From assembly GCF_035084215.1 (NCBI RefSeq), contig NC_090363.1:2666001-2730000 (forward strand): 64,000 nucleotides of DNA. The letters run 5' to 3'. The position numbers were made by a program, and so were the translations under genes. This document shows positions 6,356 through 44,625 of this stretch, piece by piece. The notes under the pieces are model-generated. The model ran no database searches. It saw only the letters and a program-made list of their open reading frames with translations, and was not told the DNA's origin. This stretch comes from Heptranchias perlo. Lineage: Eukaryota. Each line of letters starts with the position of its first letter. Position 1 is the stretch's first letter.

Positions 6356-6421
6356 GTCGGATAGATGTAAAGTATGTGGTTATATTTCAGGGTGTTACAT
6401 CTCACTGTCCCTGGCCCTCTG

Positions 6422-6485
6422 ATGATGGATGCCCTGGTCTCCCTTACGTTTCTCCAGCTCCAGATTCTTCTTTGGATCTCTCAGG
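6422..6485 (+). CDS. BTN-like signal peptide exon ([21 protein letters not shown])
   Basis: Acceptor tatttcag at 6390, ATG at 6422, hydrophobic leader, donor G|GTAAGA at 6485/6486. Joins in frame to ETLA|QFVV. Confidence 0.85.
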
Positions 6486-12400: not shown

Positions 12401-15400
12401 TACACCTCGCCGGTCCACCTGTACAAGGACGGAGCCGACGACCTGACACTGCAGGCCTCGGCCTACAAAGGGAGGACCGAGATGTTCCTGGATCAGATGG
12501 TGCATGGAAACCTCTCCCTCAGGCTCAAACGGGTGCAGGTCTCCGACAAGGGGCAATACAAATGCTTTGTGGCGTCCACGGCCAAGCATAACGAAGCTAA
12601 GATAACCTTGGACGTGACAGGTCGGTGGCAGTTTTAAAAAAACGTGTTGTTTGTGGTCCTTCTTGATCGAGGGGTAAATGTTGGGCCAGGACACCGGGAG
12701 AATTTCCCTGCCCCTCGGGCCTCGGGATCAGTTCTACAGGATTAAAACCCTCCTTAAAACCTACCTCTGTGACCAAGCTTTTGGTCGCCTGTCCTAATAT
12801 CTCCTCATGTGGCTCGGGGTCAAATTCTGTCTGATTTACGCTCGCGTGAAGCGCCTTGGGGACGTTTCGCTACGTTAAAGGCGCTATATAAATGCGGGTA
12901 GTTGTTGTTCTAGTAACTCCCGCCCACCCCCGCCAATGGGGTTTTAACTCTCTCAGTATCGGTGAGTTCACCTATTATCCACGGTGATTAATTTATTCCC
13001 CAGCGACTGGACAGGTCGAATTCCCACTCTTTTCGTTTTGTTTTTAAACCACGTGTAGTTTCTCTGGGCGGTTTGGAGATTGTGTAGCACCAGTCCCTCC
13101 GCTTTATGTGGGTGGGGGGGCCGGGGCGGGGGGCCAGGGGTGGGGGGGGGGGGGGGCGGGGATCCGCTGATTCACGGCAACTGAACAGAACCCCGCCCTC
13201 CGGGAGCGCACTCCGAGACCGCCCGCTCCGCGCGGGCAGGGCGATATTCTACAAACTGGGGGGCACTGGCGAGCGTCCCACGGCGGAGACGTACCCCGAT
13301 AAACCAAACTCCGTTCTTGTTAACACGGGATTTCTTAAATGTGATTTTGGGGGTTCAGATTCTGCCATTCAGTCTGTTTTCCTGCGAAGGTTTCTTCTCA
13401 GAGACTTTATATATGTTGCGTGTGCCTATATGTAAGTTGTGTGTCATGGAATCATAGAACGATGCAGCACAGAAGGAGGCCATTCGGCCCATCGTGCTTG
13501 TGCTGGCTCTTTGATAAAGCTCTCCACACGCACTGGAAAGAGTAACGTCCCCTTGACTGGTTCAAGTATCATAAAAACATCAACAAATCGCAACTGAATG
13601 GTTTAACAGGAAAGAGATATTTTTAAAGAACAAATGTCAGTCATTTCTGGCTGGACCTCGCCCCCAGTGGGGTCTCCCTCTTCCCCCCCCCGCCTTGCTG
13701 ACCATGATAATCTGGTCCCTCCACAAGGGGAGGAGCCAAGCAATTCGAAGTAGCTGAGGTACAGATCAGCTGCGATCTAGTTGAATGGCGGAGCAGGCCT
13801 CGAGGGGCTGATTGGCCTCCTCCTGTTCCCATTGTTTCTTTGGTCCTGTCGTTACCTATGTTCATTTGGCCGTATGCTCCTATTGTTCCCAGGTACAGGG
13901 CGCCAACCTCTGATTGAGATGGTGGCCTATAAAGGGAGTGGTATCACACTGGCCTGCAAATCAGAGGGCTGGTTCCCACAGCCGCCCGTCCAGTGGATTT
14001 ACGGGAGTGGAAAGAACATGACCGCCCAGCCACAAACAACGTACCACCCCAATACCGAGGGGCTGTATACGGTCCAGAGCAAAATCGACATCTTCAGTGA
14101 CTCCACCAACAAGTACACCTGCCTCGTCAACAATGACCTCCTGAAGGAGAGCCAGCAGGCACACATCCAGATAGCAGGTCTGTCGGGACAGAAAAAACAA
14201 TGTCTTTTTAAAATGCTTAACGATTTGGGGGAAAATACTTTTTTAATATAATTATAGATAAATATAAAGCTATGTGAAATCTTGGGATGAAGACAGGCCC
14301 CTCGTGATTACGGCAGGCCCCTCGTGGTTATGGTAGGTTTCTCATCGCTAAGACAGGCCCCCCGTGGTTACGGCAGGCCCCCCGTGGTTACGGCAGGCCC
14401 CTCGTAGTTATGGTAGATTTCTCATCGCTAAGACAGGCCCCTCGTGGTTACGGCAGGCCCCTCGTGGTTACGGCAGGCTCCTGATTATTACACATTCATT
14501 CCCCAATTCCAAATTATTAATAGTGTTATTATAGGACCACGTGGTCAATAAGATAAACTGCTTGTCCCTGGTTAGTGACAACAAGTCTGAGCAGTATATC
14601 CACACCCGCTATACTGCAGTGCGCTGCGGGGAGAATGTTCCGCGGAGGGCAATGTCTAATGATGATTGTGGGGTGGGGGAGGTGGAGGAGCGGACGTGGA
14701 GTCGGGGGGGGAAGCAGGCCTGAGGGGAGGAGGAGTGGGGATGTGGAGTGAGAGGAGAGCGGGAGGTGGTGGAGAGGAGGGGGGTGGGGGAGAGAGAGCG
14801 AGTGTGCTGAACTGACCCCCAGTTGCCTGACTGGTTCTCTGTACTTTCCAGGCACCTTCTTCCCCCATGTCTCGGGCTGGCTCGTAGCATTCTGGATCTT
14901 TTTCTTTGCGATGGTTGCCGCTCTTTGCTTGGCGCTGTGGTACCGTCAACAGCTGCAAAAGAAGATTATGTGTGAGCAAGACTTCTGCAGGCGGGAAAAA
15001 TCTCAAACCTTAATACAACTTATTCGCGGTTTCACAGTAAATGTCATTTAATGATGGTAGTGGGGTGCCCATAACATGCCTGCATTGAGTGTTATTAACT
15101 GTGTAATGGGGAGTCTGGTCACTATAGTCTGATAGGGAGAGTGTAATGGGGAGTCTGGTCACTATAGTCTGATAGTGAGAGTGTAATGGGGAGTCTGGTC
15201 ACTATAGTCTGATAGGGAGAGTGTAATGGGGAGTCTGGTCACTATAGTCTGATAGTGAGAGTGTAATGGGGAGTCTGGTCACTATAGTCTGATAGGGAGA
15301 GTGTAATGGGGAGTCTGGTCACTATAGTCTGATAGTGAGAGTGTAATGGGGAGTCTGGTCACTATAGTCTGATAGTGAGAGTGTAATGGGGAGTCTGGTC

Positions 15401-18400
15401 ACTATAGCCTGATAGTGAGAGTGTAATGGGGAGTCTGGTCACTATAGTCTGATAGTGAGAGTGTAATGGGGAGTCTGGTCACTATAGTCTGATAGTGAGA
15501 GTGTAATGGGGAGTCTGGTCACTATAGTCTGATAGGGAGAGTGTAATGAGGAGTCTGGTCACTATAGTCTGATAGTGAGAGTGTAATGGGGAGTCTGGTC
15601 ACTATAGTCTGATAGGGAGAGTGTAATGAGGAGTCTGGTCACTATAGTCTGATAGTGAGAGTGTAATGGGGAGTCTGGTCACTATAGTCTGATAGTGAGA
15701 GTGTAATGGGGAGTCTGGTCACTATAGTCTGATAGGGAGAGTGTAATGGGGAGTCTGGTCACTATAGTCTGATAGTGAGAGTGTAATGGGGAGTCTGGTC
15801 ACTATAGTCTGATAGTGAGAGTGTAATGGGGAGTCTGGTCACTATAGTCTGATAGTGAGAGTGTAATGGGGAGTCTGGTCACTATAGTCTGATAGTGAGA
15901 GTGTAATGGGGAGTCTGGTCACTATAGTCTGATAGTGAGAGTGTAATGGGGAGTCTGGTCACTATAGTCTGATAGTGAGAGTGTTATGAGGAGTCTGGTC
16001 ACTATAGTCTGATAGTGAGAGTGTAATGAGGAGTGTTTCTGTGTAATTGTGTCTTATGTACTGATGAATTTTTGTGATTTTTGTTTTCAGATCTAACGTT
16101 TGCTGGAGGTTTAATAGGTGAGAGACGTTAGCTTCAGTCCACAGACCTGTTTTGTACGGATGTTCCCTTATCTTTGGATGGATATGTAGATTTTCCATAT
16201 TCAAGGATTTCACTCTCTTCTCTCACTGAACATTTTGAAACCTGTGGTGAGAAGCCTGGTGCCTGAGCCCTCTTCAGTGCTGTTCTGACCTCGTACCAGC
16301 CGTCCTAAGAGTGGGAAACTGCTCTGTTTGTTCCACATTTTCCCCTCAATTATTGTGAGAGGTGTCAACCTCAGCTTTTCAACTCCGTCTGTCTGTCTGT
16401 CTGTCTCTTTCTTTCTCCCCTCTCTATATCTATCTCATTCTCTGTCTGTGTGTCTGTCNNNNNNNNNNNNNNNNNNNNNNNNNNNNNNNNNNNNNNNNNN
16501 NNNNNNNNNNNNNNNNNNNNNNNNNNNNNNNNNNNNNNNNNNNNNNNNNNNNNNNNNNNNNNNNNNNNNNNNNNNNNNNNNNNNNNNNNNNNNNNNNNNN
16601 NNNNNNNNNNNCTCTGTCTGTGTGTGTCTCTCTCTTTGTGTCTCTCTTTGTGTGTGTGTCTCTCTCTCTGTCTGTCTGCCTNNNNNNNNNNNNNNNNNNN
16701 NNNNNNNNNNNNNNNNNNNNNNNNNNNNNNNNNNNNNNNNNNNNNNNNNNNNNNNNNNNNNNNNNNNNNNNNNNNNNNNNNNNNNNNNNNNNNNNNNNNN
16801 NNNNNNNNNNNNNNNNNNNNNNNNNNNNNNNNNNNNNNNNNNNNNNNNNNNNNNNNNNNNNNNNNNTCTGTCTCGCTCTCTGTCTGTCTCGCTCTCTGTC
16901 TGTCTCGCTCTCTGTCTGTCTCGCTCGCTCTCTGTCTCGCTCGCTCTCTGTCTCGCTCGCTCTCTGTCTCGCTCGCTCTCTGTCTCGCTCGCTCTCTGTC
17001 TCGCTCGCTCTCTGTCTCGCTCGCTCTCTGTCTCTGTCTCTCTCTCTGACACACACACACGCAGAGTTTAGCAGGATAGAGTGAATTGAATCTGGATCAC
17101 AGCACTGCCCCGTTGAGAGGTGAAGTTTCCCTTTGCTGGGGCACTGATCCAGGGTCACCACTGGCCCTCTGCCCCTCGCTCTACATGGCCATTATTGAAA
17201 TGTGAGCCCAGATAGTGAATGTTGGCAGGTTATTAATGGGGAAGCAACCCATACACGGCCTGTCCTCACCCTTGGTCTTCCAGCAGGGGTCATTGGGAAG
17301 CAACCAGTATCAGGAGCCCTGGGGAGAATCCTCCCTAACTCGAGAGGGGTGTGTGGCCGATTACAGACCCCCAAATCCAATCTGGGTGAGGTCAACTAGC
17401 GAGAATCATCGAATGATACAGCACAGAAGGAGGCCATTTGGCCCATCGTAGCTGTGCTGGCTCTTTGAAAGAGCTATCCAATTAGTCCCATTCCCCTGCT
17501 CTTTCCCCATGGCCCTGTAACATTTCTCCCCTTCAATTTATCCCATTCCCCTTTTGAAAGTTACTGTTTAATCTGCTTCCACCACCTGAATTCCAGATCA
17601 TCATAACTCGCTGCATAAAACACATCTCTCCTCATCTCCCCCCGGTTCTTTTGCCAATTACCTTAAATCTGTGTCCGCTGGTCACCGACCCTCCCATTAA
17701 TGGAAACAGTTTCTCCCAATCTCCTCTATAAAGTACCGACCGAGCCAGCGGGAGAGTGTGCTTTGTTTTTTGATGAAATCCAGTCGAAGATACCCAGTTG
17801 AGGTGAGGAATGAATGGCCGTTTGCTGATTGATGGTTTTCTTTTGATCTGTTACAGAAAATAAAAAGCTGCTGGATGAAATGGGTGAGTCCCCGTTGGTA
17901 ACAGAGATCTAGTCATGATCACACCTGTAAACCCAGTAAACACAATGTCAGGTTCCACGTGTCCACTGACGACACCCAGCTCTACCTCACCACCACCTCT
18001 CTCGACCCCCGCCTCTCCGATTTGTCTCACTGCTTGTCCGACATCCAGACCTGGATCAGCAAAGATTTCCCCCAACCAAATGTTGGGAAGACCGAAGCCG
18101 TTGTCTTCAGTCCCCGCCGCAAACTCTGTTCCCTCGGCCACCGACTCCATCCCTCTCCCTGCCCACTGTCTGAGGCTGAACCAGACCGTTCGCAACCTTG
18201 GCGTCCTGTGTGACCCTGAGATGAGCTTCTGACCCCATGTCCGCTCCATCTCCAAGACCTCCTACTCCACCTCCGTAACATCGCCCGTCTCCGCCCCGCC
18301 TCAGCTCATCTGCTGAAACCCTCATCCGTGCCTTTGTTACCTCTAAACTTGACTATTCCAATGCTCTCCTGGCCGGCCTCCCATCTTCCACCCTCCATAA

Positions 18401-21400
18401 ACTTGAGCTCATCCAAAACTCTGCTGCCCGTATCCTAACTCGCACCAAGTCCCGTTCACCCATCACCCCCCTGTGCTCGCTGACCCACATTGGCTCCCGG
18501 TCCGGGAACGCCTCGATTTTAAAATTCTCATCTTTGTTTTCAAATCCCTCGCCCCCTCCCTATCTCTGTAACCCCCTCCAGCCCTACAACCCTCCGAGAT
18601 CTCTGCTCTCCTCCAATTCTGGCCTCTTGCGCATCTCCGATTCCCATCGCTCCACCATTGGCGGCCGTGCCTTCAGCTGCCTGGGCCCGAAGCTCTGGAA
18701 TTCCCTCCCTAAACCTCTCCGCCTCTCTCTCCTCCTTTAAGACGCTCCTTAAAACCCACCTCTTTGACCAAGCTTTTGGTCACCTGTCCTAAAATCCCCT
18801 TATGTGGCTCGGTGTCAAATTTTGTTTGATAATCGCTCCTGTGAAGCATCTTGGGACGTTTTACTACATTAAAGGCGCTATATAAATGCAAGTTGTTGTT
18901 GTTTAAATGCAATATGAAGTCTGAGAAAAGAATGTTTGGAACATGCAGACTGTCGCTGGGTGAAGAGATATGACATGTAACGAATTAACTCGCTCTCCTC
19001 GAGTGTCCGAATAGTTTGTACACAAAGAAAGAAAAATAAGATCTTGCATTTCTATAGCACCTTTCACGACCTCAGGACGTCCCAAAGTGCTTTACAGCCA
19101 ATGAAGTGTAGTCAGAAACGCGGCCAATTTGCGCACAGCAAGATCCCACAAACAGCAATGTGATAATGACCAGATAATCTGTTTGTTTTTTATTGACGTT
19201 GGCTGAGCAATAAATATTGGCCCAGGACACCAGGGAGAACTCCCCCTGCTCTTCTTCGAGACGGTGGCCACGGGATCTTTTACATCCACCTGAGAGGGCA
19301 GACGGGGCCTCGGTTTAATGTTGCATCCGAAAGATGGCACCTCTGACAGTGTAGCACTCCCTCAGTGCTGTACTGGGAGCGTTGGCCTGGATTGTGGGAT
19401 CGAGTTTACTGGAGCGGGGCTCGAACCCACGACCTTCTGCCTCAGAGGCAAGAATGTTACCCACTGCGCCACGGCCGACACCTAGAAATATAATATTAGC
19501 GGGCAGACGCTAAACGTGTTTGTGCCCGGTTTCTCTATTTTAACACGTGCGTTAACCCATTAATTATAAACTGGTCAATCTCGCCTGGCATTGCATGCTG
19601 GGAAGTCAACACCCAGTACCATCTTAAAACTAGTGGACAGGGACGAAAAAATAATCAAAAAGGATAATGAACGTTGGCCTTTATCTCAAGGAGGGCTGGA
19701 ATACAAGGGGGAGGAGTTTGTACAGAAATGCACCTCTTGTTCCTCCATCAATCAATGTGACCGGCTTAACATGAGGCTCTTGAGGGAGAAATGGTGAACT
19801 GAACCTGGATCTTGTGAATATCTCATTCTTTCATTGGAGGTTAGTCGTTAAATGAGCTACAAGTTTATGCATTCAAGCCCCACTCCTGGACTTCAGCACA
19901 TAATCGGAGGGTCAGTACTGAGGGAGCGCCGCACTGTCGGAGGGTCGGTACTGAGGGAGCGTCGCACTGTCGGAGGGTCGGTACTGGGGGAGCGCCGCAC
20001 TGTCGGAGGGTCGGTACTGAGGGAGCGCCGCACTGTCGGAGGGTCGGTACTGAGGGAGCGCCGCACTGTCGGAGGGTCGGTACTGAGGGAGCGCCGCACT
20101 GTCGGAGGGTCGGTACTGAGGGAGCGCCGCACTGTCGGAGGGTCGGTACTGAGGGAGTGCCGCACTGTCGGAACTGAGGGAGCGCCGCACTGTCGGAGGG
20201 TCGGTACTGAGGGAGCGCCGCACTGTCGGAGGGTCGGTACTGAGGGAGTGCCGCACTGTCGGAACTGAGGGAGCGCCGCACTGTCGGAGGGTCGGTACTG
20301 AGGGAGTGCCGCACTGTCGGAACTGAGGGAGCGCCGCACTGTCGGAGGGTCGGTACTGAGGGAGTGCCGCACTGTCGGAACTGAGGGAGCGCCGCACTGT
20401 CGGAGGGTCGGTACTGAGGGAGCGCCGCACTGTCGGAGGGTCGGTACTGAGGGAGCGTCGCACTGTCGGAGGGACGGTACTGAGGGAGCGCCGCACTGTC
20501 GGAGGGTCGGTACTGAGGGAGCGCCGCACTGTCGGAGGGTCAGTACTGAGGGAGCGCCGCACTGTCGGAGGGACGGTACTGAGGGAGCGCTGCACTGTCT
20601 GAGGTGCCATCTTTTGGATGAGACATTAAACCGAGGCCCCGTCTGCCCTCTCAGGCGCATGTAAAAGATCCCACGGCCACTATTTCGAAGAAGAGCCTGG
20701 GAGTTCTCCCCGGTGTCCTGGGGCCAATATTTATCCCTCAACCCAACATCACTAAAAACAGATTATCTGGTCATTATCACATTGCTGTCTTTGGGATCTT
20801 GCTGTGCACAAATTGGCTGCCGCGTTTCGTACATTACATCAGTGACTACACTTGAAGGAGTACTTCTATTACAGTAAGGCACATGGAGACTTTCTGGTGC
20901 TGAGTGAGGTGTTGTATATTACAAAATCTTTCTTTAGCATCGGCCATGATTTCTAACATTTTTTTTTCTACTTGCAGAGCAAGAGCGAATGAATGTGGAA
21001 CAGGGTAAGTGAGGGGAGGTCCCCGCAATGGTCAGTCTTATCGAGCGTCTTACTGCCTGTCTGCATGGCCGGTCAATTTAGCAGCAGCTCAGAGGCACCT
21101 GAGTCTGGTGTCTTGACATCCTGCAAACGGCCCAGAGTCAATCAAATGGAATTTGTTCCCATTCAACTGATGGGTTTCTCTTTTGTTTCAGAGTATAAAA
21201 GACTACGCAAGGAAATAGGTAAGAAAGTGGGAGCTGTGGGTGAAAGGGAGGGGTACAGAGAGGGGGGATAATCTTGGGGAAGGGGGGGTACAGAGAGGGG
21301 AAATAATCCTGGGGAAAGTGAGTCCAGAGAGGGGAGATAATCCTGGGGAAAGGGGGGTACAGAGAGGGGAAATAATCCTGGGGAAAGAGGGTACAGAGAG

Positions 21401-24400
21401 GGGAAATAATCCTGGGGAAAGTGAGTACAGAGAGGGGAGATAATCCTGGGGAAAGGGGGGTACAGAGAGGGGAGATAATCCTGGGGAAAGGGGGTACAGT
21501 GAGGGGAAATAATCCTGGGGAAAGGGGGTACAGAGAGAGGAGATAATCCTGGGGAAGGTGGTACAGAGAGAGGAGATAATCCTGGGGAAGGGGGTACAGA
21601 GAGAGGAGATAATCCTGGGGAAAGGGGGGTACAGAGAGAGGAGATAATCCTGGGGAAGGGGGTACAGAGAGAGGAGATAATCCTGGGGAAGGTGGTACAG
21701 AGAGAGGAGATAATCCTGGGGAAGGGGGTACAGAGAGAGGAGATAATCCTGGGGAAGGGGGGTACAGAGAGGGGAGATAATCCTGGGGAAAGGGGGGTGC
21801 AGAGAGGGCAGAAAGCTATGGGTAATGTGGGGTAAACAGAGAGGGGAGATAACCACGGGTGCAGATCTGACACTGCAAGGGGTAGAAAAGTTTGTGGGCC
21901 AACACAATGACTGCACGTCAGGCCCAAGCTTCTTTTAGACTGGAGCTCCCATCTTTTGTCCAAATCCATCAGCCTATCTCGGGTTACTCTTGCACACCTT
22001 GAGGGGCCTGGTGTAAAAGCAGTACTGGGAGTGGGCCTCGGGCCTGGGAGTGGGCCTCAGGTCTTCTATATCAGTGTGGGAGGGAGGGTAGCACAAGGGA
22101 GGATGCTCACTGGCAGATTCTTTCACCTTTCTATGTCTGTTTGTCTTTTTTCAGAGGAAGTAAAAGCAACGGGGAAGTTAGGTGAGCTGCGAGCAGGAGC
22201 TGAAGAGTTCGGCGAAATACCAAGATTGTTTGTATTGTAACATTTCCAATTGAGAGTCAGGCTGTCTCAACTTAATTTAAAACAACAGAGCTAGACAGAG
22301 CTCTGTGGGGGAGACCAGAACTAAGGGGCCATAAATATAAGATAAACACTAATAAATCAAATAGAGAATTCAGGAGAAACTTCTTTACCCAGAGAGTGGT
22401 GAGAATGTGGAACTCGCTCCCACAGGGAGTGGTTGAGGCGAATAGTGTAGATACATTTAAGGGGAAGCTTGATAAACACGTGAGGGAGAAAGGAATAGAA
22501 GGATATGCTGATAGGATGAGATGAAGTAGGGAGGGAGGGGGCTCGTGGGGAGCATAAACACCGGCATGGACTAGTTGGGCCGAATGGCCTGTTTCTGTGC
22601 TGTGAATTCTGTGTAATTCTATGTAGACGTCTGAAGGCACGGCCACCAATGGTGGGACGAAGGGAGTAGGAGACGCACAAGAGGCCAGAGTTATTTTATC
22701 TATCGCAGCGAGGTGTCATGGCACACTTACCGATTCACACTTAAAAAGAATGTCGATATTTGACACGGGAGACTGAACCTTTGTCGAGTCTCAGTGTTTA
22801 CTTACCTGCGAACTGACTTTCTGACCTTAAAGAGATACAACTTCACCTTAGCAGCAGAATAATACATTATGCACACAGGAGTTGGGATGTCTTGTTGAAG
22901 TTGTACAAGACATTAGTTAGGCCACACTTGGAATACTGTGTACAGTTCTGGTCACCCTATTATAGAAAGGATATTATTAAACTAGAAAGAGTGCAGAAAA
23001 GATTTACTAGGATGCTACCGGGACTTGATGGTTTGACTTATAGGGAGAGGTTGGATAGGTTGAGACTTTTTTCCCTGGAGAGTAGGAGGTTTCGGGGTGA
23101 TCTTATAGAAGTCTATAAAATAATGAGGGGCATAGATAAGGTCGATAGTCAAAATCTTTTCCCAAAGGTAGGGGAGTCTATAACGAGGGGACATAGATTT
23201 AAGGTGAGAGGGGAGAGATACAAAAGGGTCCAGAGGGGCAATTTTTTCACTCAAAGGGTGGTGAGTGTCTGGAACGAGCTGTCAGAGGCAGTAGTAGAGG
23301 CGGGTACAATTTTGTCTTTTAAAAAGCATTTGGACAGTTACATGGGTAAGATGGGTATAGAGGGATATGGGCCAAGTGCAGGCAATTGGGACTAGCTTAG
23401 TGGTATAAACTGGGCGACATGGACATGTTGGGCCGAAGGGCCTGTTTCCATGTTGTAAACTTCTATGATTCTATAATAGCGCAGGGTAATGTGGTCGTTG
23501 TAACTCACCCTGTCATCTGACTTATGAGCAATGCCACACGAGGTCCTCTAGCATAACAATTACTAAAAGGAAAATCCTTTCTATCTTTTAAAATAGATTC
23601 CTTCTAAGTTATTTTTTTAGATCTCTGGTACAGCAACCACTTTTAGCTTTTGAGTTAAATTTCTTGCACAATGAATGTAATTGTTTTAAATTGTCTTGGT
23701 CCCACTGTTACAATTTTCTCTCTTTATCTCCTTTTCTGTCCAGAACGCGAAAAACTTCGCAAGGAATTTGGTAAGAGATTTGAGAGATTGTTCTCTTAAA
23801 CCCCCTAATGCTGGGATTGGGTTTCACCTCATGATTGACACAGGTTTTTTCATAGGAATTGTGTGTTCATGACGTGCTAAAGATAATGGGGCAGATTGTT
23901 CTGTGTTTGCTCCCTGGGCTATTGGATTGCCTAGATGTACTGAATATGGGAAAATGCCTGACCTGGGAGTGCTTGATAAGGTCGTCTAGAAAGAGCTTTA
24001 CTCTGTATCCATACCTAACCTGGGAGTGTTTGATGGGGCAGTGTAGAGGGAGCTTTACTCTGTATCTAACCCTGTACCTAACCTGGGAGTGTTTGATGGG
24101 GCAGTGTAGAGAGAGCTTTACTCTGTATCTAACCCCGTGCTGTACCTGCCCTGGGAGTGTTTGATGGGACAGTGTAGAGGGAGCTTTACTCTGTATCTAA
24201 CCCTGTACCTGCCTTGGGAGTGTTTGATGGGACAGTGTAGAGAGAGCTTTACTCTGTATCTAACCCTGTACCTGCCCTGGGAGTGTTTGATGGGACAGTG
24301 TAGAGAGAGCTTTACTTTGTATCTAACCCTGTACCTGCCCTGGGAGTGTTTGACGGGACAGTGTAGAGGGAGCTTTACTCTGTATCTAACCCCGTGCTGT

Positions 24401-27400
24401 ACCTGCCCTGGGAGTGTTTGATGGGACAGTGCAGAGGGAGCTTTACTCTGTGTCTAACCCGTGTTGTACCTGCCCTGGGAGTGTTTGATGGGGCAGTGTA
24501 GAGGGAGCTTTACTCTGTATCTAACCCTGTACCTGCCCTGGGAGTGTTTGATGGTACAGTGTAGAGAGAGCTTTACTCTGTATCTAACCCTGTACCTGCC
24601 CTGGGAGTGTTTGACGGGACAGTGTAGAGGGAGCTTTACTCTGTATCTAACCCCGTGCTGTACCTGCCCTGGGAGTGTTTGATGGGACAGTGTAGAGGGA
24701 GCTTTACTCTGTATCTAACCCTGTACCTGTCCTGGGAGTGTTTGATGGGACAGTGTAGAGGGAGCTTTACTCTGTATCTAACCCGTGTTGTACCTGCCCT
24801 GGGAGTGTTTGATGGGGCAGTGTAGAGGGAGCTTTACTCTGTATCTAACCCTGTACCTGCCCTGGGAGTGTTTGATGGTACAGTGTAGAGAGAGCTTTAC
24901 TCTGTATCTAACCCTGTACCTGCCCTGGGAGTGTTTGATGGGATAGTGTAGAGGGAGCTTTACTCTGTATCTAACCCCGTGCTGTACCTGCCCTGGGAGT
25001 GTTTGACGGGACAGTGTAGAGGGAGCTTTACTCTGTATCTAACCCCGTGCTGTACCTGCCCTGGGAGTGTTTGATGGGACAGTGTAGAGGGAGCTTTACT
25101 CTGTATCTAACCCCGTGCTGTACCTGCCCTGGGAGTGTTTGACGGGACAGTGTAGAGGGAGCTTTACTCTGTATCTAACCCTGTACCTGCCCTGGGAGTG
25201 TTTGATGGGACAGTGTAGAGGGAGCTTTACTCTGTATCTAACCCCGTGCTGTACCTGCCCTGGGAGTGTTTGACGGGACAGTGTAGAGGGAGCTTTACTC
25301 TGTATCTAACCCCGTGCTGTACCTGCCCTGGGAGTGTTTGATGGGACAGTGTAGAGGGAGCTTTACTCTGTATCTAACCCTGTACCTGCCCTGGGAGTGT
25401 TTGATGGGACAGTGTAGAGGGAGCTTTACTCTGTATCTAACCCTGTACCTGCCCTGGGAGTGTTTGATGGGACAGTGTAGAGGGAGCTTTACTCTGTATC
25501 TAACCCTGTACCTGCCCTGGGAGTGTTTGATGGGACAGTGTAGAGGGAGCTTTACTCTGTATCTAACCCTGTACCTGCCCTGGGAGTGTTTGATGGGACA
25601 GTGTAGAGGGAGCTTTACTCTGTATCTAACCCTGTACCTGCCCTGGGAGTGTTTGACGGGACAGTGTAGAGGGAGCTTTACTTTATATCTAAACATACTA
25701 GAGCGGACCTGGGAGTGCTGGCAATGAAGATGAATCTTCTTTGACTCTGTGCTGCCGACACTGAGCCTCAGCCATCGCGAGCTTGGATTAGGAATTCAGG
25801 CACATACTTGCCCACAACTTTGTGACCACTATTTTAAATAATTTAAATCACGGGCTGTTCTTGCGATACCATCTCCAATATTCACCTCTTGGGTGCCCGA
25901 AGTGGAAAGTGTTCCCGAGCACTGGGATCCCTGACCTCGATGGGCACCAAATGGCAGCGTCTTTATTTGGTGAAGGAAGAGACCTGATGGAAGTAGAGCG
26001 ATAATAAATGCACCAGTAGACGGTGAGAGGCGTCCACGGTGTCCGAGGTGATGGGATGCCACGTGACGTGACGGGGTCGCTGGGCAACCACGAGGAGAAG
26101 CTCCAAAATCGTTCCACTACCCAATCACTGGGGTTCGGAGATTTGATTAACGGCGGCACGGCCGACGACTGATTAAATCCGAGAGCGTTGCATTGCCAAG
26201 ATCAGCTGCCCATTGAGCACTTGGTGACGTATCTCCTTGGGGGAGGGAAGGAGGGGGAGGGGGAGGGGGGGGGCAGATAATTTGGGTCTCTGCGGGGTGG
26301 AGATTCCACGATGACGTGCCCGGTGATGCAAGGGCAGAACAAAGTCAACCTTCAGCGATGGGCCTTCAGCAAGGGTTCTGGGCACTGCTGGTGATTAGCC
26401 AGCCAGGCTTGGAGGGAGGGCTTGGATTCCCCCTGGCCTGTAAACAGTGGGAAGGTGACCAGGTATTGGGTACCTGGGAAGCTACACATGGCGGTGTCTC
26501 ACCTCTTTTTTTGTTTTACAGAAATCGAAAGGGGTGCCTTTAAAGCAGGTATGTGGTGACATGTCAGACTGGGGGCATGGGATTGTCTGGAGTTTCACAG
26601 GGTGGGTGGAGGAGGGGAGGGGGGTTTGCAAGGTTGCCAACTCTGGTTGGATGCATTCCTGGAGGTTTCATCACATGACCTGCCTCCTGGTCAAACACCC
26701 TTTAATCCCCTTCGCCAATATTTTTTGCAACTAATAAACTAAAAGTCTTGGAAGAAAATTAAGCAAACCCACCATTCTTTTTAATGCCCCAATGATTGTT
26801 CTCCTGGGTTTTTTTTTTTGCTCGCCGCAGCGTCCTGGAGATTGGTCACTCATTCCTGGAGACTCCAGGACTATCCTGGAGGGTTGGCAACTTATGAGGA
26901 GGGATGGAACATGTTTTACAGCGTCTTTTGTTGTTTGATCTCTGGGACACACACCCGTGCTCCGGGGGGGGGGCGGGTGGGGGTGCAGCTCGGAGGCTGC
27001 CCTCTCCCTGCCTGATACCAGTGTCGGACTAGCCGCTTTGGGTGGCTCTGGGCTTTGGGTGGATGCCCTCCCGATGGGGAACCCACAGCATATCACTTTT
27101 ACGCCGCTAATGACTTTTCCAGATGAATTGGTCAGCACGTTCTCTAATGTTATTAGCTGCAGCTATTTTATATATAAATAATGGCAGTGGTTGATGTGAT
27201 TTGAGAATGTGATTAGAAAAGAGAAGGCTGAGGGGTGACCTTATAGAGGTCTTTTGAAAGGGCTCGTAGGGTAGATGTAGAGAAAATGTTTCCACTTGTG
27301 GGGGAGACCAGAACTAGGTCAGAAATATAAAACAGTCACGAATAAATTTGATCGGGAATTCAGGAGAAACTTCTTCACCCAGAGAGGGGTGAGAATGTGG

Positions 27401-30287
27401 AACTCGCTCCCACAAGGAGTAGTTGAGGTGAATAGCATAGAGGCATTTAAGGGGAGGCGAGATAAACACATGAGGGAGAAAGGAATAGAAGGATATGCTG
27501 ATAGGGTGAGATGAAGTAGGGAGGGAGGAGGCTCGTGTGGAGCATAAACACCGGCATGGACCTGTTGGGCCGAATGGCCTGTTTCTGTGCTGCAGTTTTG
27601 ATGTAACTCAATGTAGCTGGGTACCGCTGGCATGGACCACCTATCCGATGGGTTAGTGCTGTCATGCCCAACGGTCCAGGTTTGATGATCACCTATTCTG
27701 CTTCCCATCTCCAGCCCACCCATGAAACATGAGACCGGGTATTACAGTCCAGTGAGATAATCAATGCAGTCGGAAGATGGGGAGGGAGGAAATTGCAGGA
27801 GAAAAGGAATAAAAATAAATGATATTGGCATTGTGAAATCACAGTCTGTAATCTGTCCATCTCTTCATCTGTTACAGAACGCGAGAAACTCCAGAGTGAT
27901 TTTGGTGAGTGACTTTACTAGAATGTTCATTTGCGAAAATGGTTGATTCCTATTGGTGTCAGGTTCAAATTAATAAATCCTTCTGTTCCACGAGGGAGGT
28001 TCAGTGATTGCTCTCACTGGGTGTGTTTCTCAGTGATTGCGCTCACTGGGTGTGTTTCTCAGTGATTGCGCTCACTGGGTGTGTTTCTCAGTGATTGCTC
28101 TCACTGGCTGTGTTTCTCAGTGATTGCTCTCACTGGGTGTGTTTCTCAGTGATTGCGCTCACTGGGTGTGTTTCTCAGTGATTGCTCTCACTGGCTGTGT
28201 TTCTCAGTGATTGCTCTCACTGGCTGTGTTTCTCAGTGATTGCTCTCACTGGGTGTGTTTCTCAGTGATTGCTCGCACTGGGTGTGTTTCTCAGTGATTG
28301 CTCTCACTGGCTGTGTTTCTCAGTGATTGCTCTCACTGGCTGTGTTTCTCAGTGATTGCTCTCACTGGCTGTGTTTCTCAGTGATTGCTCTCACTGGCTG
28401 TGTTTCTCAGTGATTGCTCTCACTGGGTGTGTTTCTCAGTGATTGCTCTCACTGGCTGTGTTTCTCAGTGATTGCTCTCACTGGGTGTGTTTCTCAGTGA
28501 TTGCTCTCACTGGCTGTGTTTCTCAGTGATTGTTCTCACTGGCTGTGTTTCTCAGTGATTGCTCTCACTGGCTGTGTTTCTCAGTGATTGCTCGCACTGG
28601 GTGTGTTTCTCAGTGATTGCTCGCACTGGGTGTGTTTCTCAGTGATTGCTCTCACTGGGTGTGTTTCTCAGTGATTGCTCTCACTGGGTGTGTTTCTCAG
28701 TGATTGCTCTCACTGGGTGTGTTTCTCAGTGATTGCTCGCACTGGGTGTGTTTCTCAGTGATTGCTCGCACTGGGTGTGTTTCTCAGTGATTGCTCGCAC
28801 TGGCTGTGTTTCTCAGTGATTGCTCTCACTGGCTGTGTTTCTCAGTGATTGCTCTCACTGGGTGTGTTTCTCAGTGATTGCTCGCACTGGGTGTGTTTCT
28901 CAGTGATTGCTCGCACTGGGTGTGTTTCTCAGTGATTGCTCTCACTGGGTGTGTTTCTCAGTGATTGCTCTCACTGGGTGTGTTTCTCACTCAGTGGGGC
29001 TGATTTTAACCCCCGAGAACGGGTGGGTTGGGGGCGGGTGGGAGTTGAAAATAATTGTTTTTTTGGGTCGCAACCTCAAAATTTTCAGACTTTGCATTCC
29101 CCGTGGGAAGCCTGGACTTTTACAACCCCACGTTAAACCCGGAAATAAAGCCGGGTTGCGGTTGCGACCCAAAAAACAACTATTTTCAACTCCCGCCCGC
29201 CCCCAACCCACCCGTTCTTGGGGGATAAAATCACCCCCTGTGGGTGTGTCTCTCGGTGAACGCTCTCTGGGTGCGTCTCTCGGCGAACGCTCTCTGGCTG
29301 CGCCTCGCGGCGAACGCGCCCGCTGGCTGCGCCTCTCGGCGAACGCGCCCGCTGGCTGCGCCTCTCGGCGAACGCGCCCGCTGGCTGCGCCTCTCGGCGA
29401 ACGCCCCCGCTGGCTGCGCCTCTCGGCGAACGCCCCCGCTGGCTGCGCCTCTCGGCGAACGCCCCCGCTGGCTGCCTCTCGCGGCGAACGCCCCCGCTGG
29501 CTGCGCCTCGCGGCGAACGCGCCCGCTGGCTGCGCCTCGCGGCGAACGCGCCCGCTGGCTGCGCCTCGCGGCGAACGCGCCCGCTGGCTGCGCCTCGCGG
29601 CGAACGCGCCCGCTGGCTGCGCCTCGCGGCGAACGCGCCCGCTGGCTGCGCCTCGCGGCGAACGCGCCCGCTGGCTGCGCCTCGCGGCGAACGCGCCCGC
29701 TGGCTGCGCCTCGCGGCGAACGCGCCCGCTGGCTGCGCCTCGCGGCGAACGCGCCCGCTGGCTGCGCCTCGCGGCGAACGCGCTCACAGTGAGGACCGGT
29801 GTACCCTCTCTGGTCGGGAGCGCACATTTCAGGTATTGTTCCTCTTGGTGACTGCGAGTGCCTGCGCTCCTGATTGGACAGGTGCTGTCCAGTGACCGTA
29901 TAATACTGAATAGAGTCTCTCTGGCTCTGTTCCACTGCACTCACTGTGTGCACTGCTGCTAACCTCTGGATTCCTGTCTTACAGCTGATGAGAAGAAGGT
30001 AACCACAGCAGGTACGTGACAGTTCCTGTGACCGAAGAGGCTGGATCTCACTGGTCACTTTTCAGCGTTGTGCTCCCATTGGAGAGCCTCGCCCACAGGG
30101 AGGGCATATTGGAAATTGGGGCATAGGCTGCAAATGATTCTCTGCACCTCTCGTTTCTTTCACTTGTTCTATCTCTTTATCTCTATTTCTAACTTTCTCT
30201 CTTTTTCTCTCAAATATATACTGTCTCTCACTATATCTCTTTCTGTTTCCCACCCTTTCACTTTCTCCCGCATCTCTTCTGTTGCGC

Positions 30288-30318
<31 letters not shown>

Positions 30319-33300
30319 CTCGCTCATATATATTGGTTTCTCCTATCTCACCTCTCTCTCAGCCTTTCCTATTCCCTCTCCCTCTCTCACTCCTCTCTCT
30401 TTCGCTCCCTCCGCACATGTTCTCCCTCCGCTCCCGCGCTCCCCCTCCCTCCGCTCCCACGCTCCCCCTCCCTCCGCTCCCGCGCTCCCCCTGCTCCCGC
30501 GCTCCCCCTCCCTCCGCTTCCCGCGCTCCCCCTCCCTCCGCTCCCGCGCTCCCCCCTCCCTCCGCTCCCGCGCTCCCCCTGCTCCCGCGCTCCCCCTCCC
30601 TCCACTCCCACGCTCCCCCTCCCTCCGCTCCCGCGCTCCCCCTTCTCCCGCGCTCCCCCTCCCTCCGCTCCCGCGCTCCCCCTCCCTCCGCTGCCGCGCT
30701 CCCCCTCCCTCCGCTGCCGCGCTCCCCCTCCCTCCGCTCCCGCGCTCCCCCTCCCTCCCTCGGCTGCCGCGCTCCCCCTCCCTCCCTCGGCTGCCGCGCT
30801 CCCCCTCCCTCCCTCGGCTGCCGCGCTCCCCCTCCCTCCCTCCGCTGCCGCGCTCCCCCTCCCTCCCTCCGCTGCCGCGCTCCCCCTCCCTCCCTCCGCT
30901 GCCGCGCTCCCCCTCCCTCCCTCCGCTGCCGCGCTCCCCCTCCCTCCCTCCGCTGCCGCGCTCCCCCTCCCTCCCTCCGCTGCCGCGCTCCCCCTCCCTC
31001 CGCTCCCGCGCTCCCCCTCCCTCCGCTCCCGCGCTCCCCCTCCCTCCCTCCGCTGCCGCGCTCCCCCTCCCTCCCTCCGCTCCCGCGCTCCCCCTCCCTC
31101 CCTCCGCTCCCGCGCTCCCCCTCCCTCCCTCCGCTGCCGCGCTCCCCCTCCCTCCCTCCGCTGCCGCGCTCCCCCTCCCTCCCTCCGCTGCCGCGCTCCC
31201 CCTCCCTCCCTCCGCTCCCGCGCTCCCCCTCCCTCCGCTCCCGCGCTCCCCCTCCCTCCCTCCGCTGCCGCGCTCCCCCCTCCCTCCCTCCGCTCCCGCG
31301 CTCCCCCTCCCTCCCTCCGCTCCCGCGCTCCCCCTCCCTCCCTCCGCTGCCGCGCTCCCCCTCCCTCCCTCCGCTGCCGCGCTCCCCCTCCCTCCCTCCG
31401 CTGCCGCGCTCCCCCTCCCTCCCTCCGCTGCCGCGCTCCCCCTCCCTCCCTCCGCTCCCGCGCTCCCCCTCCCTCCCTCCGCTCCCGCGCTCCCCCTCCC
31501 TCCCTCCGCTCCCGCGCTCCCCCGCTTCTGCCCAGTGAATTACACAGAATAAAGCAGTACTGGTAAATTGCAAGTGTTGGTCTCACTGTATAGTCAATTG
31601 TTTTGTCAGGTCAGGGATTTAGTAAAACAATCAATCGCTCTCAGATATTAAACCTTTCGCTGTTGACGTTTTCTGCTATTTTTCCTCCTTGCAGAATATC
31701 AGAAGCTTCAGACTGAATTTGGTGAGTTATTTCACAGTAAAATCAGTTATGGTAAAGTCGTATCTGGTTCAGTTCTGGTACAGTCATTACACAGGACTCT
31801 GTACCTTTGGGCGGCTGGACTCACCCCTGACGTTGCAGGCAACTTGTCTCCTCAACTTGGCTTCGATACAGAGCCCCAGCCTATTCAGTCTTTCCTGATA
31901 GTTGAACCCTTCAGTAATAACGACTGGAAAGTCCAGCTTTACGGAAAACCGCCTGGGCATCGATCTCCCGGCTCCAGTAGAGATTTTGAAAGTCTGGCAT
32001 CGTTCGTGCCAAACTCCATATTAATTACTAGTAAGTTGATGGTGTGACATTGCTCAAGGCCCAGTTAATGACCACGGGCTAGATTTACAACTTGCCGCCC
32101 GGATGGTAAAACTAGCCGTTGTGGATCGGACGCCCATGAGAGAAACCGTCCGATCTTCATTCCTGTCGACTTTAATGGAGTTGAAAACTCGGGCGGTTTC
32201 TATAAGGGGAGGCCAGTCCGCGGGCGGTGGGTTGAAAATCTACCCCGACAAGCCCTTTATTGTATATCATAGACGTCGATGGAGTTGAGAAACGTCAGAA
32301 ACTCACTCCATGGAGCCACCGAGTGGCCACAGCCTGCAACTGCATCGTGACGGTTGACATAGCAAAATTGAATGGGAGATGTTGACGTAGCACTTTACAA
32401 TGGTAAAAGTGCGATCAAAAATGGTGACAAGATAAAGTAAAGGCTTGTGAACAGGAAGTCACGCCCAGCAAGGTTTTTAATAATATGTAGATTTATGTTA
32501 TCATTTTTTAAAATCTGTTCACAATGAAAACCTTTGGCATGAAAGGTAAGTCCTGTTAATAAAGTCCACTGTATTGAGGGGGTTTTAATTCATACTTTTC
32601 GATTTCTGTTTCCTTTTAGAACAATGGCGACCCCTTGCCGTGGCAGGTATGTTCTCCACCGCAAATGCATATCGTGAAGGGATGTTAGGCTCTTTTTGCA
32701 GTTGGTAAATGGGCTGCCTGGTGTGGTACTGAGTCAAACAGGCCAGGAAGTCCCCACATTCAATCCCTGGTCTGATCTCAGCCTTCAGTTAATCGCAGGA
32801 GCTCTCTGTGTGTGAGTTGTGAATGAATCGCAGGAGCAGGGTGGTGTGACCGGTCATTAGCCTGGTTCTCAATCCCCTACCAGGAGATAGGTGCACTGCC
32901 TTTAGTCTGGCTCCTACCTTTCGACCTGTCTGGCTTGGGTGGTCCGACCAGGAGTTATACCCCCAGGCAGTATAGCTCTCAGGGTCATAGCAGCACACTT
33001 GCCTTCTCACCGGGTCAAGGGGCAACCCCTCAGCCCTTCTGATTCGCTGACCTTCACCCCCCAGACCCATGGGCCTCACTGTGAACAGGGACGTAAATTG
33101 ATTATTGACCCGTTTGAGAGTGTCGGCGTTAATTATTAAAGGTTATTAATCCTCTGCCCTTCAATGCCTTCTGTTTTTTTTTCCAGAGTGGGACAGGATA
33201 CAGACCAATGCAGGTACGACCCTCAGTAACGCAGTGCGACGGACTGTACACCTCACCACACGACCCTCCCGACTCGCAACACTTGCGTTATTTTCAGTCC

Positions 33301-43650: not shown

Positions 43651-44217
43651 AATAAGAACATAAGAAATAGGAGCAGGAGTAGGCCAATCGGCCCCTCGAG
43701 CCTGCTCCGCCGTTCAATAAGATCATGGCTGATCTGATCCTAACCTCAAATCTAAATTCATGTCCAATTTCCTGCCCGCTCCCCGTAACCCCTAATTCCC
43801 TTTACTTCTAGGAAACCTCTTCTTTTAATCCAATACTATCCTTAACTTCTCTAGTTAATGCTGGTTAGAATATGGAACTCAATACCACAAGGAGTGGTTG
43901 AGGCGAATAGCATAGATGGATTTAAGGGGAAGCTGGATAAACACATGAGGAAGAAAGGAATAGAAGGAAGTGCTGATAGGGTGAGAGGAAGAGGGGAGGG
44001 AGGAGGCTCGTGTGGAGCATAAACGCCGGCATAGACCAGTTGGGCCGAATGGCCTGTTTCTGTGCTGTAGACGCAATGTAACTCGATGGCGTCCACCTTC
44101 CCTCCTCATTGTAAAATTCCCTGAGACATCTTGACGCACGTTAACACAAATGCAGGTTCCTGTTACTGTTGCAAAATTAATTTTGACTCTACTGTTTCAC
44201 TTTCACAGCCTGAAGCA

Positions 44218-44625
44218 ATGAGACGATTAAAGCAGAAGCGAAAGCTTCCGAGGAGACTGTCACGGAGACAATTACCGGTCAAGTTATCCCTCCCAGTCTG
44301 GAGGCTGCCTCTGAGGGGTGCACTCATGAAGCCGTTGCTTCGAATGAGAGGGCAGTTGCCCGTGAAGCCGCTGCTTCCGGCCCGGTGGCTGCAGGTGAAG
44401 GGTTCACGCCTGAAGGCGGATAAGAGGTCAGCACTGATGAAAGTAGAGAAGAGGCTGCCTGGAAGGAATTCACCAGCCAAGGTAGCGAGGAAAGTGCCCG
44501 TGAGGTGTTTCCCTGAGAACAGGTCACTTGCACAGAGGAGGTCAATGTTAAAGAACGTCAGTCAGGAGCCATCAGTCCCGGCAAGGAGATCACCAGCCAG
44601 CATAAATCTACTTTTTGCTTCGTAA
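44218..44625 (+). CDS. Uncharacterised 135-aa highly basic Arg/Lys/Pro/Leu-rich protein (protamine-like or CENP-A-tail-like)
   Basis: Acceptor tttcactttcacag at 44208, ATG in gcaATG context 9 nt into the exon, 408-nt ORF not built from TE or simple repeat, TAA, then AATAAA at 44693. By my count 23 R + 14 K versus 4 D/E. Confidence 0.62.
   Translation: MRRLKQKRKLPRRLSRRQLPVKLSLPVWRLPLRGALMKPLLRMRGQLPVKPLLPARWLQVKGSRLKADKRSALMKVEKRLPGRNSPAKVARKVPVRCFPENRSLAQRRSMLKNVSQEPSVPARRSPASINLLFAS

What the first reader, a model, noticed from the sequence alone, without database searches (positions are those of the whole stretch)
16091..33213. Twelve 27-nt symmetric micro-exons in strict A/B alternation give an 18-residue-period cytoplasmic stalk
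Seen: all 12 exons are exactly 27 nt and phase 1-1. Even exons share a motif ([54 protein letters not shown]); odd exons form a looser second class ([45 protein letters not shown]). Established: mammalian BTNs have only a few small juxtamembrane exons (21/27 nt), and chicken BG genes have many 21-nt heptad exons. Inference: serial duplication of an exon pair built a 108-aa stalk with an 18/5 (7+11) non-canonical coiled-coil period. Any exon can be skipped in frame, but only pairwise skipping keeps the helical register, so the membrane-to-B30.2 distance may be tunable.
Basis: partly seen in the sequence, partly recalled or inferred. Interest (0 to 1): 0.75.

Follow-up and report, generated by a model that had tools for sequence, protein, structure and literature searches.

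The report
Shark butyrophilin with paired-exon long stalk
This shark immune-receptor gene of the butyrophilin family splices twelve 27-base mini-exons, kept in the sharks and skates we checked, into an unusually long inner stalk that likely forms a nearly straight coiled coil and probably holds its end domain at a fixed, not splice-adjustable, distance from the membrane.

Summary
Twelve 27-nt phase 1-1 exons lie between the transmembrane and B30.2 exons of a shark butyrophilin-like gene. RNA-type contigs from one sample put exactly 324 nt there, with no skipped form. Alternation is real but narrower than claimed: it covers exons 2-10, while exons 1, 11 and 12 are caps like those of shorter paralogues. 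Orthologue models from 10 other shark and skate species keep 12 nine-residue units; 4 stingray/devil-ray species have 10, one pair lost. The averaged hydrophobic period is 3.6, fitting an 18-residue (7+11) coiled coil, though the signal is weak in this shark's own sequence and no dimer model could be run. Splice-tunable length is unsupported, and 'pairs only' has counter-examples among paralogues. Best reading: an ancient fixed-length spacer of about 150 Å, built by duplicating exon pairs because one 27-nt exon is 2.5 helical turns. Shark butyrophilins and short-exon stalks are known; I found no paper on this layout. The scan earlier noted giant 27/36-nt micro-exon B30.2 genes in other shark DNA (related design, unchecked). 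Verdict: new variant of a known kind, moderate interest.

The parts
6391..6485 (+). Likely leader (signal peptide) exon, ATG at 6422
12258..12620 (+). IgV exon (363 nt)
   Evidence: Pfam V-set E 4.4e-10; 78% to Heterodontus BTN-like P0001
13893..14177 (+). IgC exon (285 nt)
   Evidence: Pfam PF22705 butyrophilin Ig-C E 2.5e-21; its end is joined to the TM exon in 4 of 4 runs (loose ends)
14852..14971 (+). Transmembrane exon (120 nt)
   Evidence: Hydrophobic stretch; covered by one contig in 4 of 4 runs
16091..16117 (+). Micro-exon 1, juxtamembrane cap/hinge (Gly-containing)
   Evidence: TM-1-2 join in 4 of 4 runs; helix break in the orthologue model
17857..17883 (+). Micro-exon 2, B type
20978..21004 (+). 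Micro-exon 3, A type
   Evidence: inclusion from contig length
21192..21218 (+). Micro-exon 4, B type
   Evidence: inclusion from contig length
22155..22181 (+). Micro-exon 5, A type
   Evidence: inclusion from contig length
23744..23770 (+). Micro-exon 6, B type
   Evidence: inclusion from contig length
26522..26548 (+). Micro-exon 7, A type
   Evidence: inclusion from contig length
27878..27904 (+). Micro-exon 8, B type; its unit is absent in stingray/devil-ray models
   Evidence: (8-9-10 loose end in 2 of 4 runs)
29985..30011 (+). Micro-exon 9, A type; its unit is absent in stingray/devil-ray models
31695..31721 (+). Micro-exon 10, B type
   Evidence: GT..AG joint 10-11 in 4 of 4 runs
32620..32646 (+). 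Micro-exon 11, Pro-containing cap also found in short paralogues
   Evidence: Joints 10-11 and 11-12 in 4 of 4 runs
33187..33213 (+). Micro-exon 12, terminal Trp-bearing exon that precedes B30.2 in several paralogues
   Evidence: Joint to B30.2 in 4 of 4 runs
34260..34777 (+). B30.2 (PRY-SPRY) coding part of the last exon, stop at 34775-34777
   Evidence: Pfam PRY E 2.3e-14, SPRY E 1.2e-23; RNA-type contigs run on to 35900, the end of the stretch laid
31536..31562 (+). Weak 27-nt look-alike with an in-frame stop; not used
   Evidence: bypassed by the 9-10 join

Best explanation
This is a butyrophilin-like gene of an old shark-and-ray lineage whose twelve 27-nt exons are spliced in together and encode a 108-residue stalk that is predicted to be one long helix and likely pairs into a nearly straight 18-residue-period coiled coil, probably holding the B30.2 domain at a fixed distance of about 150 Å from the membrane. 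Shown: the exons, their joint inclusion in one sample, the conserved unit count. Inferred: nine residues are 2.5 helical turns, so each exon flips the hydrophobic face and only an exon pair (5 turns, 7+11) keeps it; the core (exons 2-10) therefore likely grew by pair duplication before sharks and rays split, and shrank by one pair in stingrays and devil rays. Likely register: B2=a, B5=d, B9=a, A3/A4=d/e (polar Glu/Lys), A7=h, with Ala at A6 and A9 allowing close packing. By analogy with BTN2A1/BTN3A1 the rod would carry a signal from cytosolic ligand binding at B30.2 to the Ig domains; ligand and receptor are unknown, and the BTN3A1 His/Tyr phosphoantigen contact is absent.
For: Exons far above control. 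RNA-type contigs: TM end at record base 937 and position 34258 at base 1260 of a 1446-nt contig in X3, i.e. 324 nt between the exons; 324 nt behind TM in the 1259-nt contig of X1; 192 nt plus 131 nt around one base in X2 and X4. 12 units in models of 10 other species and 10 units in 4 ray species; rays group with the 12-unit skate in the B30.2 tree (100/97) inside a 100/98 clade. Mean hydrophobic spectrum peaks at 3.61 (power 5.12 at 3.6, 0.37 at 3.5; exon-order shuffle p 0.010); for exons 2-10 of 10 orthologues 6.8 versus 2.25, p 0.0017. B5 is Leu in 39 of 50 and B9 Phe/Ile/Val/Met in 43 of 50 positions. Monomer model of P0001: helix 275-374, pLDDT 75-80 over residues 281-340. 5 of 7 complete-looking paralogues in this genome have an even number of 27-nt exons, combined with 21-nt (heptad) or 33-nt (hendecad) exons. 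Juxtamembrane coiled coils and their rigidity matter in BTN2A1 (PMC10533412, passages).
Against: In this shark's own stalk the spectrum peaks at 3.01 and power at 3.6 is only 2.36; in S. torazame it peaks at 4.54. The exon 2-10 window was chosen after seeing the data, and the orthologues are related, so the p values are optimistic. A-type units are weakly hydrophobic and carry Gly (A7 Gly in 7 of 40). The whole monomer model is poor (mean pLDDT 55, pTM 0.32) and predictors draw charged stretches as helices readily. The pair rule rests on one natural event in the lineage; a conserved 7-unit paralogue, one 33/27/21 paralogue and carpet-shark duplicates with 5 and 4 units break it. 5 of 7 even counts is not significant. 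All RNA runs are one sample and contigs drop rare forms. Introns keep no trace of the duplications.
Confidence: 0.62

Rival explanations
1. Splice-tunable ruler: cells skip exon pairs to make isoforms that place B30.2 at different depths.
For: All 12 exons are symmetric and frame-neutral. Pair deletions keep the 3.6 signal in silico (4.4-6.7) and single deletions lower it (0.1-3.9) (geometry, not independent evidence). Macaque BTN3A transcripts lacking one heptad exon are reported (PMC6790196, passages). An older bamboo-shark model lacks two pairs (P0006).
Against: No skipped joint in 4 of 4 runs among the joints that could be seen, and full length by contig arithmetic. 8 of 8 listed skate members of this gene have 12 units (15 of 21 cluster members listed). 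Clusters read for the orthologues held no shorter-stalk isoform. The newer model of the same bamboo shark has 12 units (P0018).
Confidence: 0.1
2. Segmented or loosely helical spacer: only the B units form short zippers, the A units are flexible links, and the 3.6 period is a by-product of pair duplication.
For: Odd exons are not alike in this genome; they carry Gly, Thr and Pro and few large hydrophobic residues; the 3.6 peak is missing in 2 of 6 single sequences.
Against: Inner A units of orthologues share Glu-x-Glu-Lys-x-Ala, a helix-favouring pattern (A4 Lys/Arg in 32 of 40); the model gives one helix over 100 residues; unit length and number are kept across sharks and skates.
Confidence: 0.2
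3. Neutral by-product: symmetric 27-nt exons duplicate easily in the butyrophilin cluster, and the number 12 has no function.
For: Paralogues differ freely (2 to 7 small exons); rays lost a pair; heptad number varies among squamate butyrophilins and was judged unlikely to matter (PMC12841164, first quarter read).
Against: The same 12 units in register in 11 species from horn sharks to skates, whose whole proteins are only about 50-67% identical to this one.
Confidence: 0.08

Closest known systems
Mammalian BTN2A1 / BTN3A1 / BTN3A3 (PDB 8zk1, 8za9 and others)
   Same: IgV-IgC-TM-juxtamembrane helix-B30.2; juxtamembrane part written in very short exons (PMC6790196, passages); best solved relatives, E about 1e-105 for the orthologue profile.
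   Different: IgC end to PRY start is 148 residues here against about 90 in BTN2A1 (my count) and a median of 72 over 89 spans; all small exons are 27 nt; period 3.6 rather than heptad; BTN3A1 Trp-His-Tyr aligns to Ser-Val-Pro.
Chicken BG genes (PMC5938342, PMC4046983; passages)
   Same: Long cytoplasmic tail made of many tiny exons, proposed coiled coil, true repeat offset from exon borders.
   Different: BG tails use 27-37 exons of 21 nt (a few 18 or 24), have one Ig domain, vary between haplotypes and are truncated by intron read-through; the heptad tail, not a B30.2 domain, is described as the cytoplasmic part. Here 27-nt exons alternate, the count is stable across species, and IgC and B30.2 are present.
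Cartilaginous-fish butyrophilins as a group (PMC12841164; first quarter and passages)
   Same: Butyrophilins are reported in Hemiscyllium, Carcharodon, Hypanus and Callorhinchus; variable heptad number is noted for squamates.
   Different: The word 'exon' does not occur in that main text; no nine-residue units or 18-residue period appear in what I read.
Seven-unit shark paralogue (G000:C42 near 1.99-2.00 Mb; P0029, P0031, P0128)
   Same: All-27-nt stalk alternating over its first six units; sister group in the ectodomain tree (94/87).
   Different: Seven units, with a B unit joined directly to the terminal exon; different B30.2 clade.

Membership tests
Butyrophilin (BTN/BTNL) family | Extracellular IgV followed by butyrophilin-type IgC | tested here: met
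   Pfam V-set and PF22705 over their cut-offs
Butyrophilin (BTN/BTNL) family | Single transmembrane segment | tested here: met
   Hydrophobic exon 14852-14971; helix in orthologue model
Butyrophilin (BTN/BTNL) family | Several very short exons between TM and B30.2 | tested here: met
   feature as described in PMC6790196
Butyrophilin (BTN/BTNL) family | C-terminal B30.2 (PRY-SPRY) domain | tested here: met
   Pfam PRY and SPRY; BTN3A1 is the best solved match, E 1e-38
Butyrophilin (BTN/BTNL) family | Linkage to the MHC (common, not universal) | tested here: inconclusive
   43 MHC class I matches, none on C42; class II beta search found nothing anywhere; earlier notes place class III-type genes on this contig (unchecked)
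Butyrophilin (BTN/BTNL) family | Dimer through the juxtamembrane coiled coil; T-cell modulation | not testable with these tools
BTN3A1-type phosphoantigen sensor | His351/Tyr352 contact in B30.2 | tested here: not met
   Aligned residues are Val and Pro; role of His351/Tyr352 from PMC10533412 and PMC7348870
Chicken BG family | Single IgV and a tail of 21-nt heptad exons | tested here: not met
   IgC and B30.2 present; no 21-nt exon found
18/5 (heptad+hendecad) coiled coil | Hydrophobic period 3.6 over an 18-residue repeat | tested here: met
   Averaged orthologues peak at 3.60-3.61; not met in 2 of 6 single sequences, this shark's included
18/5 (heptad+hendecad) coiled coil | Knobs-into-holes packing of two helices | not testable with these tools
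   No dimer model obtained

The most novel reading that the evidence does not exclude
Shark butyrophilin stalks are written in exon units quantised to whole helical turns (21 nt = heptad, 33 nt = hendecad, 27+27 nt = 18-mer), and this lineage fixed a 150 Å straight rod before sharks and rays split to act as a molecular ruler: it places a B30.2 sensor at a depth no mammalian butyrophilin reaches, so that stalk length decides which partner (a paralogue, one of the many neighbouring B30.2 proteins, or a cytoskeletal or pathogen surface) it can meet before signalling outwards to shark T cells.
Probability: 0.25. Interest if true: 0.68.

Novelty: new variant of a known kind. Interest (0 to 1): 0.45.

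Why it matters
Butyrophilins signal from the inside out through a juxtamembrane coiled coil, and how its length and rigidity matter is still debated (PMC7348870, PMC10533412; passages). This gene is a natural long-stalk version with exon-sized modules, conserved across sharks and skates, plus a natural 18-residue deletion in rays. It makes register-versus-length questions directly testable by single and paired exon deletions, and it is a clean example of exon size being shaped by helix geometry. It does not overturn a model: the gene family, short-exon stalks and shark butyrophilins are all known.

Tried and rejected
No run on record as RNA was listed; the four 'RNA?' runs are treated as RNA because their contigs join GT..AG introns and cover the TM exon but not its flanks. 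A 13th exon at 31536 was rejected (stop codon, bypassed). Extra 21-nt exons: none found. Intron homology as a trace of pair duplication: only short or repeat-like matches, and splice-site flanks do not sort by odd/even (ranks 63 and 297 of 462). P0006 (8 units, two pairs missing) was dropped as evidence for paired skipping because P0018 from the same species has 12. P0003, P0004 and P0014 were dropped as fused or partial. P0054 (span 285) and P0044 (span 147) look like models with unrelated inserts. Carpet-shark genes with 5, 4 and 2 units have this lineage's ectodomain but another B30.2 and were kept as counter-examples, not orthologues. MHC linkage was not shown. No holocephalan or bony-vertebrate protein with this stalk turned up among 97 hits; only the 7994 best candidates were scored. 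PMC6834341 (BTN3A1 coiled-coil paper) is not held. A sequence look-up in earlier findings gave nothing.
Full report
Observation. A splice-signal scan between the transmembrane and B30.2 exons found 12 strong 27-nt exons at the coordinates listed under parts. The splice weights are my own crude values from general knowledge. With one threshold the region's + strand gave 12 candidates of 27 nt and 1 of 31 nt; the opposite strand and 28.5 kb downstream on both strands gave none. All are phase 1-1. With IgV (12258-12620), IgC (13893-14177), TM (14852-14971) and B30.2 (34260-34777) they give 535 codons with one terminal stop. Pfam confirms V-set, butyrophilin Ig-C, PRY and SPRY. The window is G000:C42:2666001-2730000; the closest proteins are shark butyrophilin-like models.

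Expression. Four runs marked 'RNA?' from one sample hold the 3' end. Their contigs join exons 10-11, 11-12 and 12-B30.2 across GT..AG introns in 4 of 4 runs, and a loose end reads exon 8-9-10 in 2 of 4. Loose ends show IgC-TM and TM-1-2 in 4 of 4. In X3 a 1446-nt contig has the TM end at base 937 and window 34258 at base 1260, which leaves exactly 324 nt, 12 x 27. In X1 a 1259-nt contig has 324 nt behind the TM end. In X2 and X4 one contig carries 192 nt behind TM (seven exons plus 3 nt) and the next starts at base 5 of exon 8; I read this as a single-base variant at 27881. Records were matched between the two calls by length and depth. No skipping joint appeared. Contigs drop rare forms, so this shows the main form, not the absence of others.

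Alternation. Odd versus even is the best of 462 splits both in DNA and in six orthologous proteins. The signal comes mostly from the even exons: 14.9 of 27 nt alike, against 8.9 among odd exons and 9.5 across. Over orthologues, exons 3, 5, 7, 9 do form a weaker class (Glu-x-Glu-Lys-x-Ala). Exon 1 (Gly hinge), exon 11 (Pro) and exon 12 (terminal Trp exon) match neither class well, and similar exons flank the stalk in short paralogues. The true repeat is B2-A3-B4-A5-B6-A7-B8-A9-B10 between caps.

Conservation. Models from Heterodontus, Cetorhinus, Carcharodon, Mustelus, Scyliorhinus torazame, Hemiscyllium, two Chiloscyllium species, Leucoraja and Amblyraja all have 108 residues in register (10 species). 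Two Mobula species, Hemitrygon and Hypanus have 90, lacking units 8 and 9. These units are inferred from protein models; exon borders were seen only in G000. Trees place the lineage in one clade (100/98), and the B30.2 tree groups the rays with the 12-unit skate (100/97), so 12 is likely ancestral and 10 one loss (26 rows, midpoint root). Of 21 members of the skate cluster 15 were listed: 7 full-length with 12 units, 1 fused model with 12 units, and 7 of 527 residues, of which the 2 I read are a neighbouring paralogue. The IgC-to-PRY span is 148 here; the median of 89 spans in 113 proteins fetched is 72 (the set is biased to close relatives).

Paralogues. Eight other butyrophilin-type IgC exons lie on C42. 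Predicted small exons, without RNA support, are 27/27/21/21/27/27 (twice; one 21-nt exon has a weak donor), 33/27/27, 27/27 (twice), 33/27/21, seven of 27, and a copy with only two found. So 5 of 7 complete-looking paralogues have an even number of 27-nt exons, combined with heptad- or hendecad-sized exons. The seven-unit gene is conserved in other sharks. Carpet-shark duplicates have 5, 4 or 2 units and a different B30.2, and two 97% identical zebra-shark models differ by one unit. The pair rule is thus a tendency of the helical core, not a law.

Structure. Nine residues at 100 degrees each are 2.5 turns (established geometry), so one exon flips the hydrophobic face and two restore it. The mean hydrophobic spectrum of six orthologues peaks at 3.61, with power 5.12 at 3.6 and 0.37 at 3.5; exon-order shuffles reach it with p 0.010. 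For exons 2-10 of ten orthologues the values are 6.8, 2.25 and p 0.0017; this window was chosen after the first result. In single sequences 4 of 6 peak at 3.57-3.63; this shark's peaks at 3.01 and S. torazame's at 4.54. B5 and B9 are the hydrophobic anchors, B2 is Tyr/His/Asn/Cys, A6, A7 and A9 are mostly small. AlphaFold2 on the Heterodontus orthologue draws one helix over residues 275-374 with a break in unit 1, in a model of low overall confidence (mean pLDDT 55). About 100 helical residues at 1.5 Å each (recalled value) give 150 Å. A dimer model could not be obtained, so pairing is inferred from the pattern and from mammalian butyrophilins.

Mechanism. Shown: gene anatomy, joint inclusion of 12 exons in one sample, conservation of unit number. 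Inferred: growth by pair duplication, a nearly straight dimeric coiled coil, a fixed membrane-to-B30.2 distance, and inside-out signalling like BTN2A1/BTN3A1. The BTN3A1 Trp-His-Tyr motif aligns to Ser-Val-Pro, so a BTN3A1-type phosphoantigen contact is unlikely; the ligand is unknown.

Literature. PMC5938342 and PMC4046983 (passages): chicken BG tails of 21-nt exons. PMC6790196 (passages): short 'heptad' exons and an isoform lacking one. PMC7348870 and PMC10533412 (passages): juxtamembrane coiled coil and phosphoantigen residues. PMC12841164 (part 1 of 4 and passages): butyrophilins in cartilaginous fishes, MHC-linked in three species, no exon analysis in the main text; its supplementary tree was not read and may include these proteins. 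Searches (listings only, apart from the papers named) showed no description of a 27-nt alternating stalk; subscription papers are mostly missing from the library.

Earlier scan notes. Two notes describe giant 27/36-nt micro-exon B30.2 genes in other shark DNA, and two place MHC-type neighbours on this contig. I did not verify them; MHC class I matches were not on C42.

Verdict. A real, expressed, conserved feature and a new variant of a known kind. The 18-residue design is fairly well supported; the tunable-length idea is not. Interest 0.45.

Noticed in passing
window 27881: Contigs of runs X2 and X4 break around one base of micro-exon 8, as a single-base variant would; most shark orthologues have His where this sequence has Arg.
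   Followed up: partly
window 32532-33213: Low-depth contigs cover intron 11 in X1, X3 and X4 (depth 4-11 against 44-184 for spliced contigs): pre-mRNA, DNA or intron retention as in chicken BG genes.
   Followed up: no
window 44200-44730: Acidic, Ala-rich coding-like stretch behind a good acceptor; one frame has two stops, another is an open Lys/Arg-rich frame (44125-44625). Possibly a decayed exon.
   Followed up: no
G000:C42:1990000-2000950 (-) and 3291901-3299700 (-): A seven-unit all-27-nt butyrophilin paralogue, conserved in other sharks, and a partial copy of it 1.3 Mb away in which only two small exons were found.
   Followed up: partly
G000:C42, C1097, C1101, C1105, C1080: 85 B30.2 matches at E below 1e-25, most on C42; several small contigs carry both B30.2 and MHC class I-like exons.
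   Followed up: no
P0010, P0012, P0022 (carpet sharks): Apparent chimeric duplicates: ectodomain of the 12-unit lineage joined to a B30.2 from another clade, with shortened stalks.
   Followed up: partly
P0060, P0068, P0069, P0070 (turtles): Turtle butyrophilin models show near-perfect short repeat expansions in the same stalk, a separate and apparently recent lengthening.
   Followed up: no
window 15101-31523: Seven minisatellite arrays of 0.5-1.7 kb sit in the stalk introns; they could favour unequal exchange but no link to exon number was tested.
   Followed up: no
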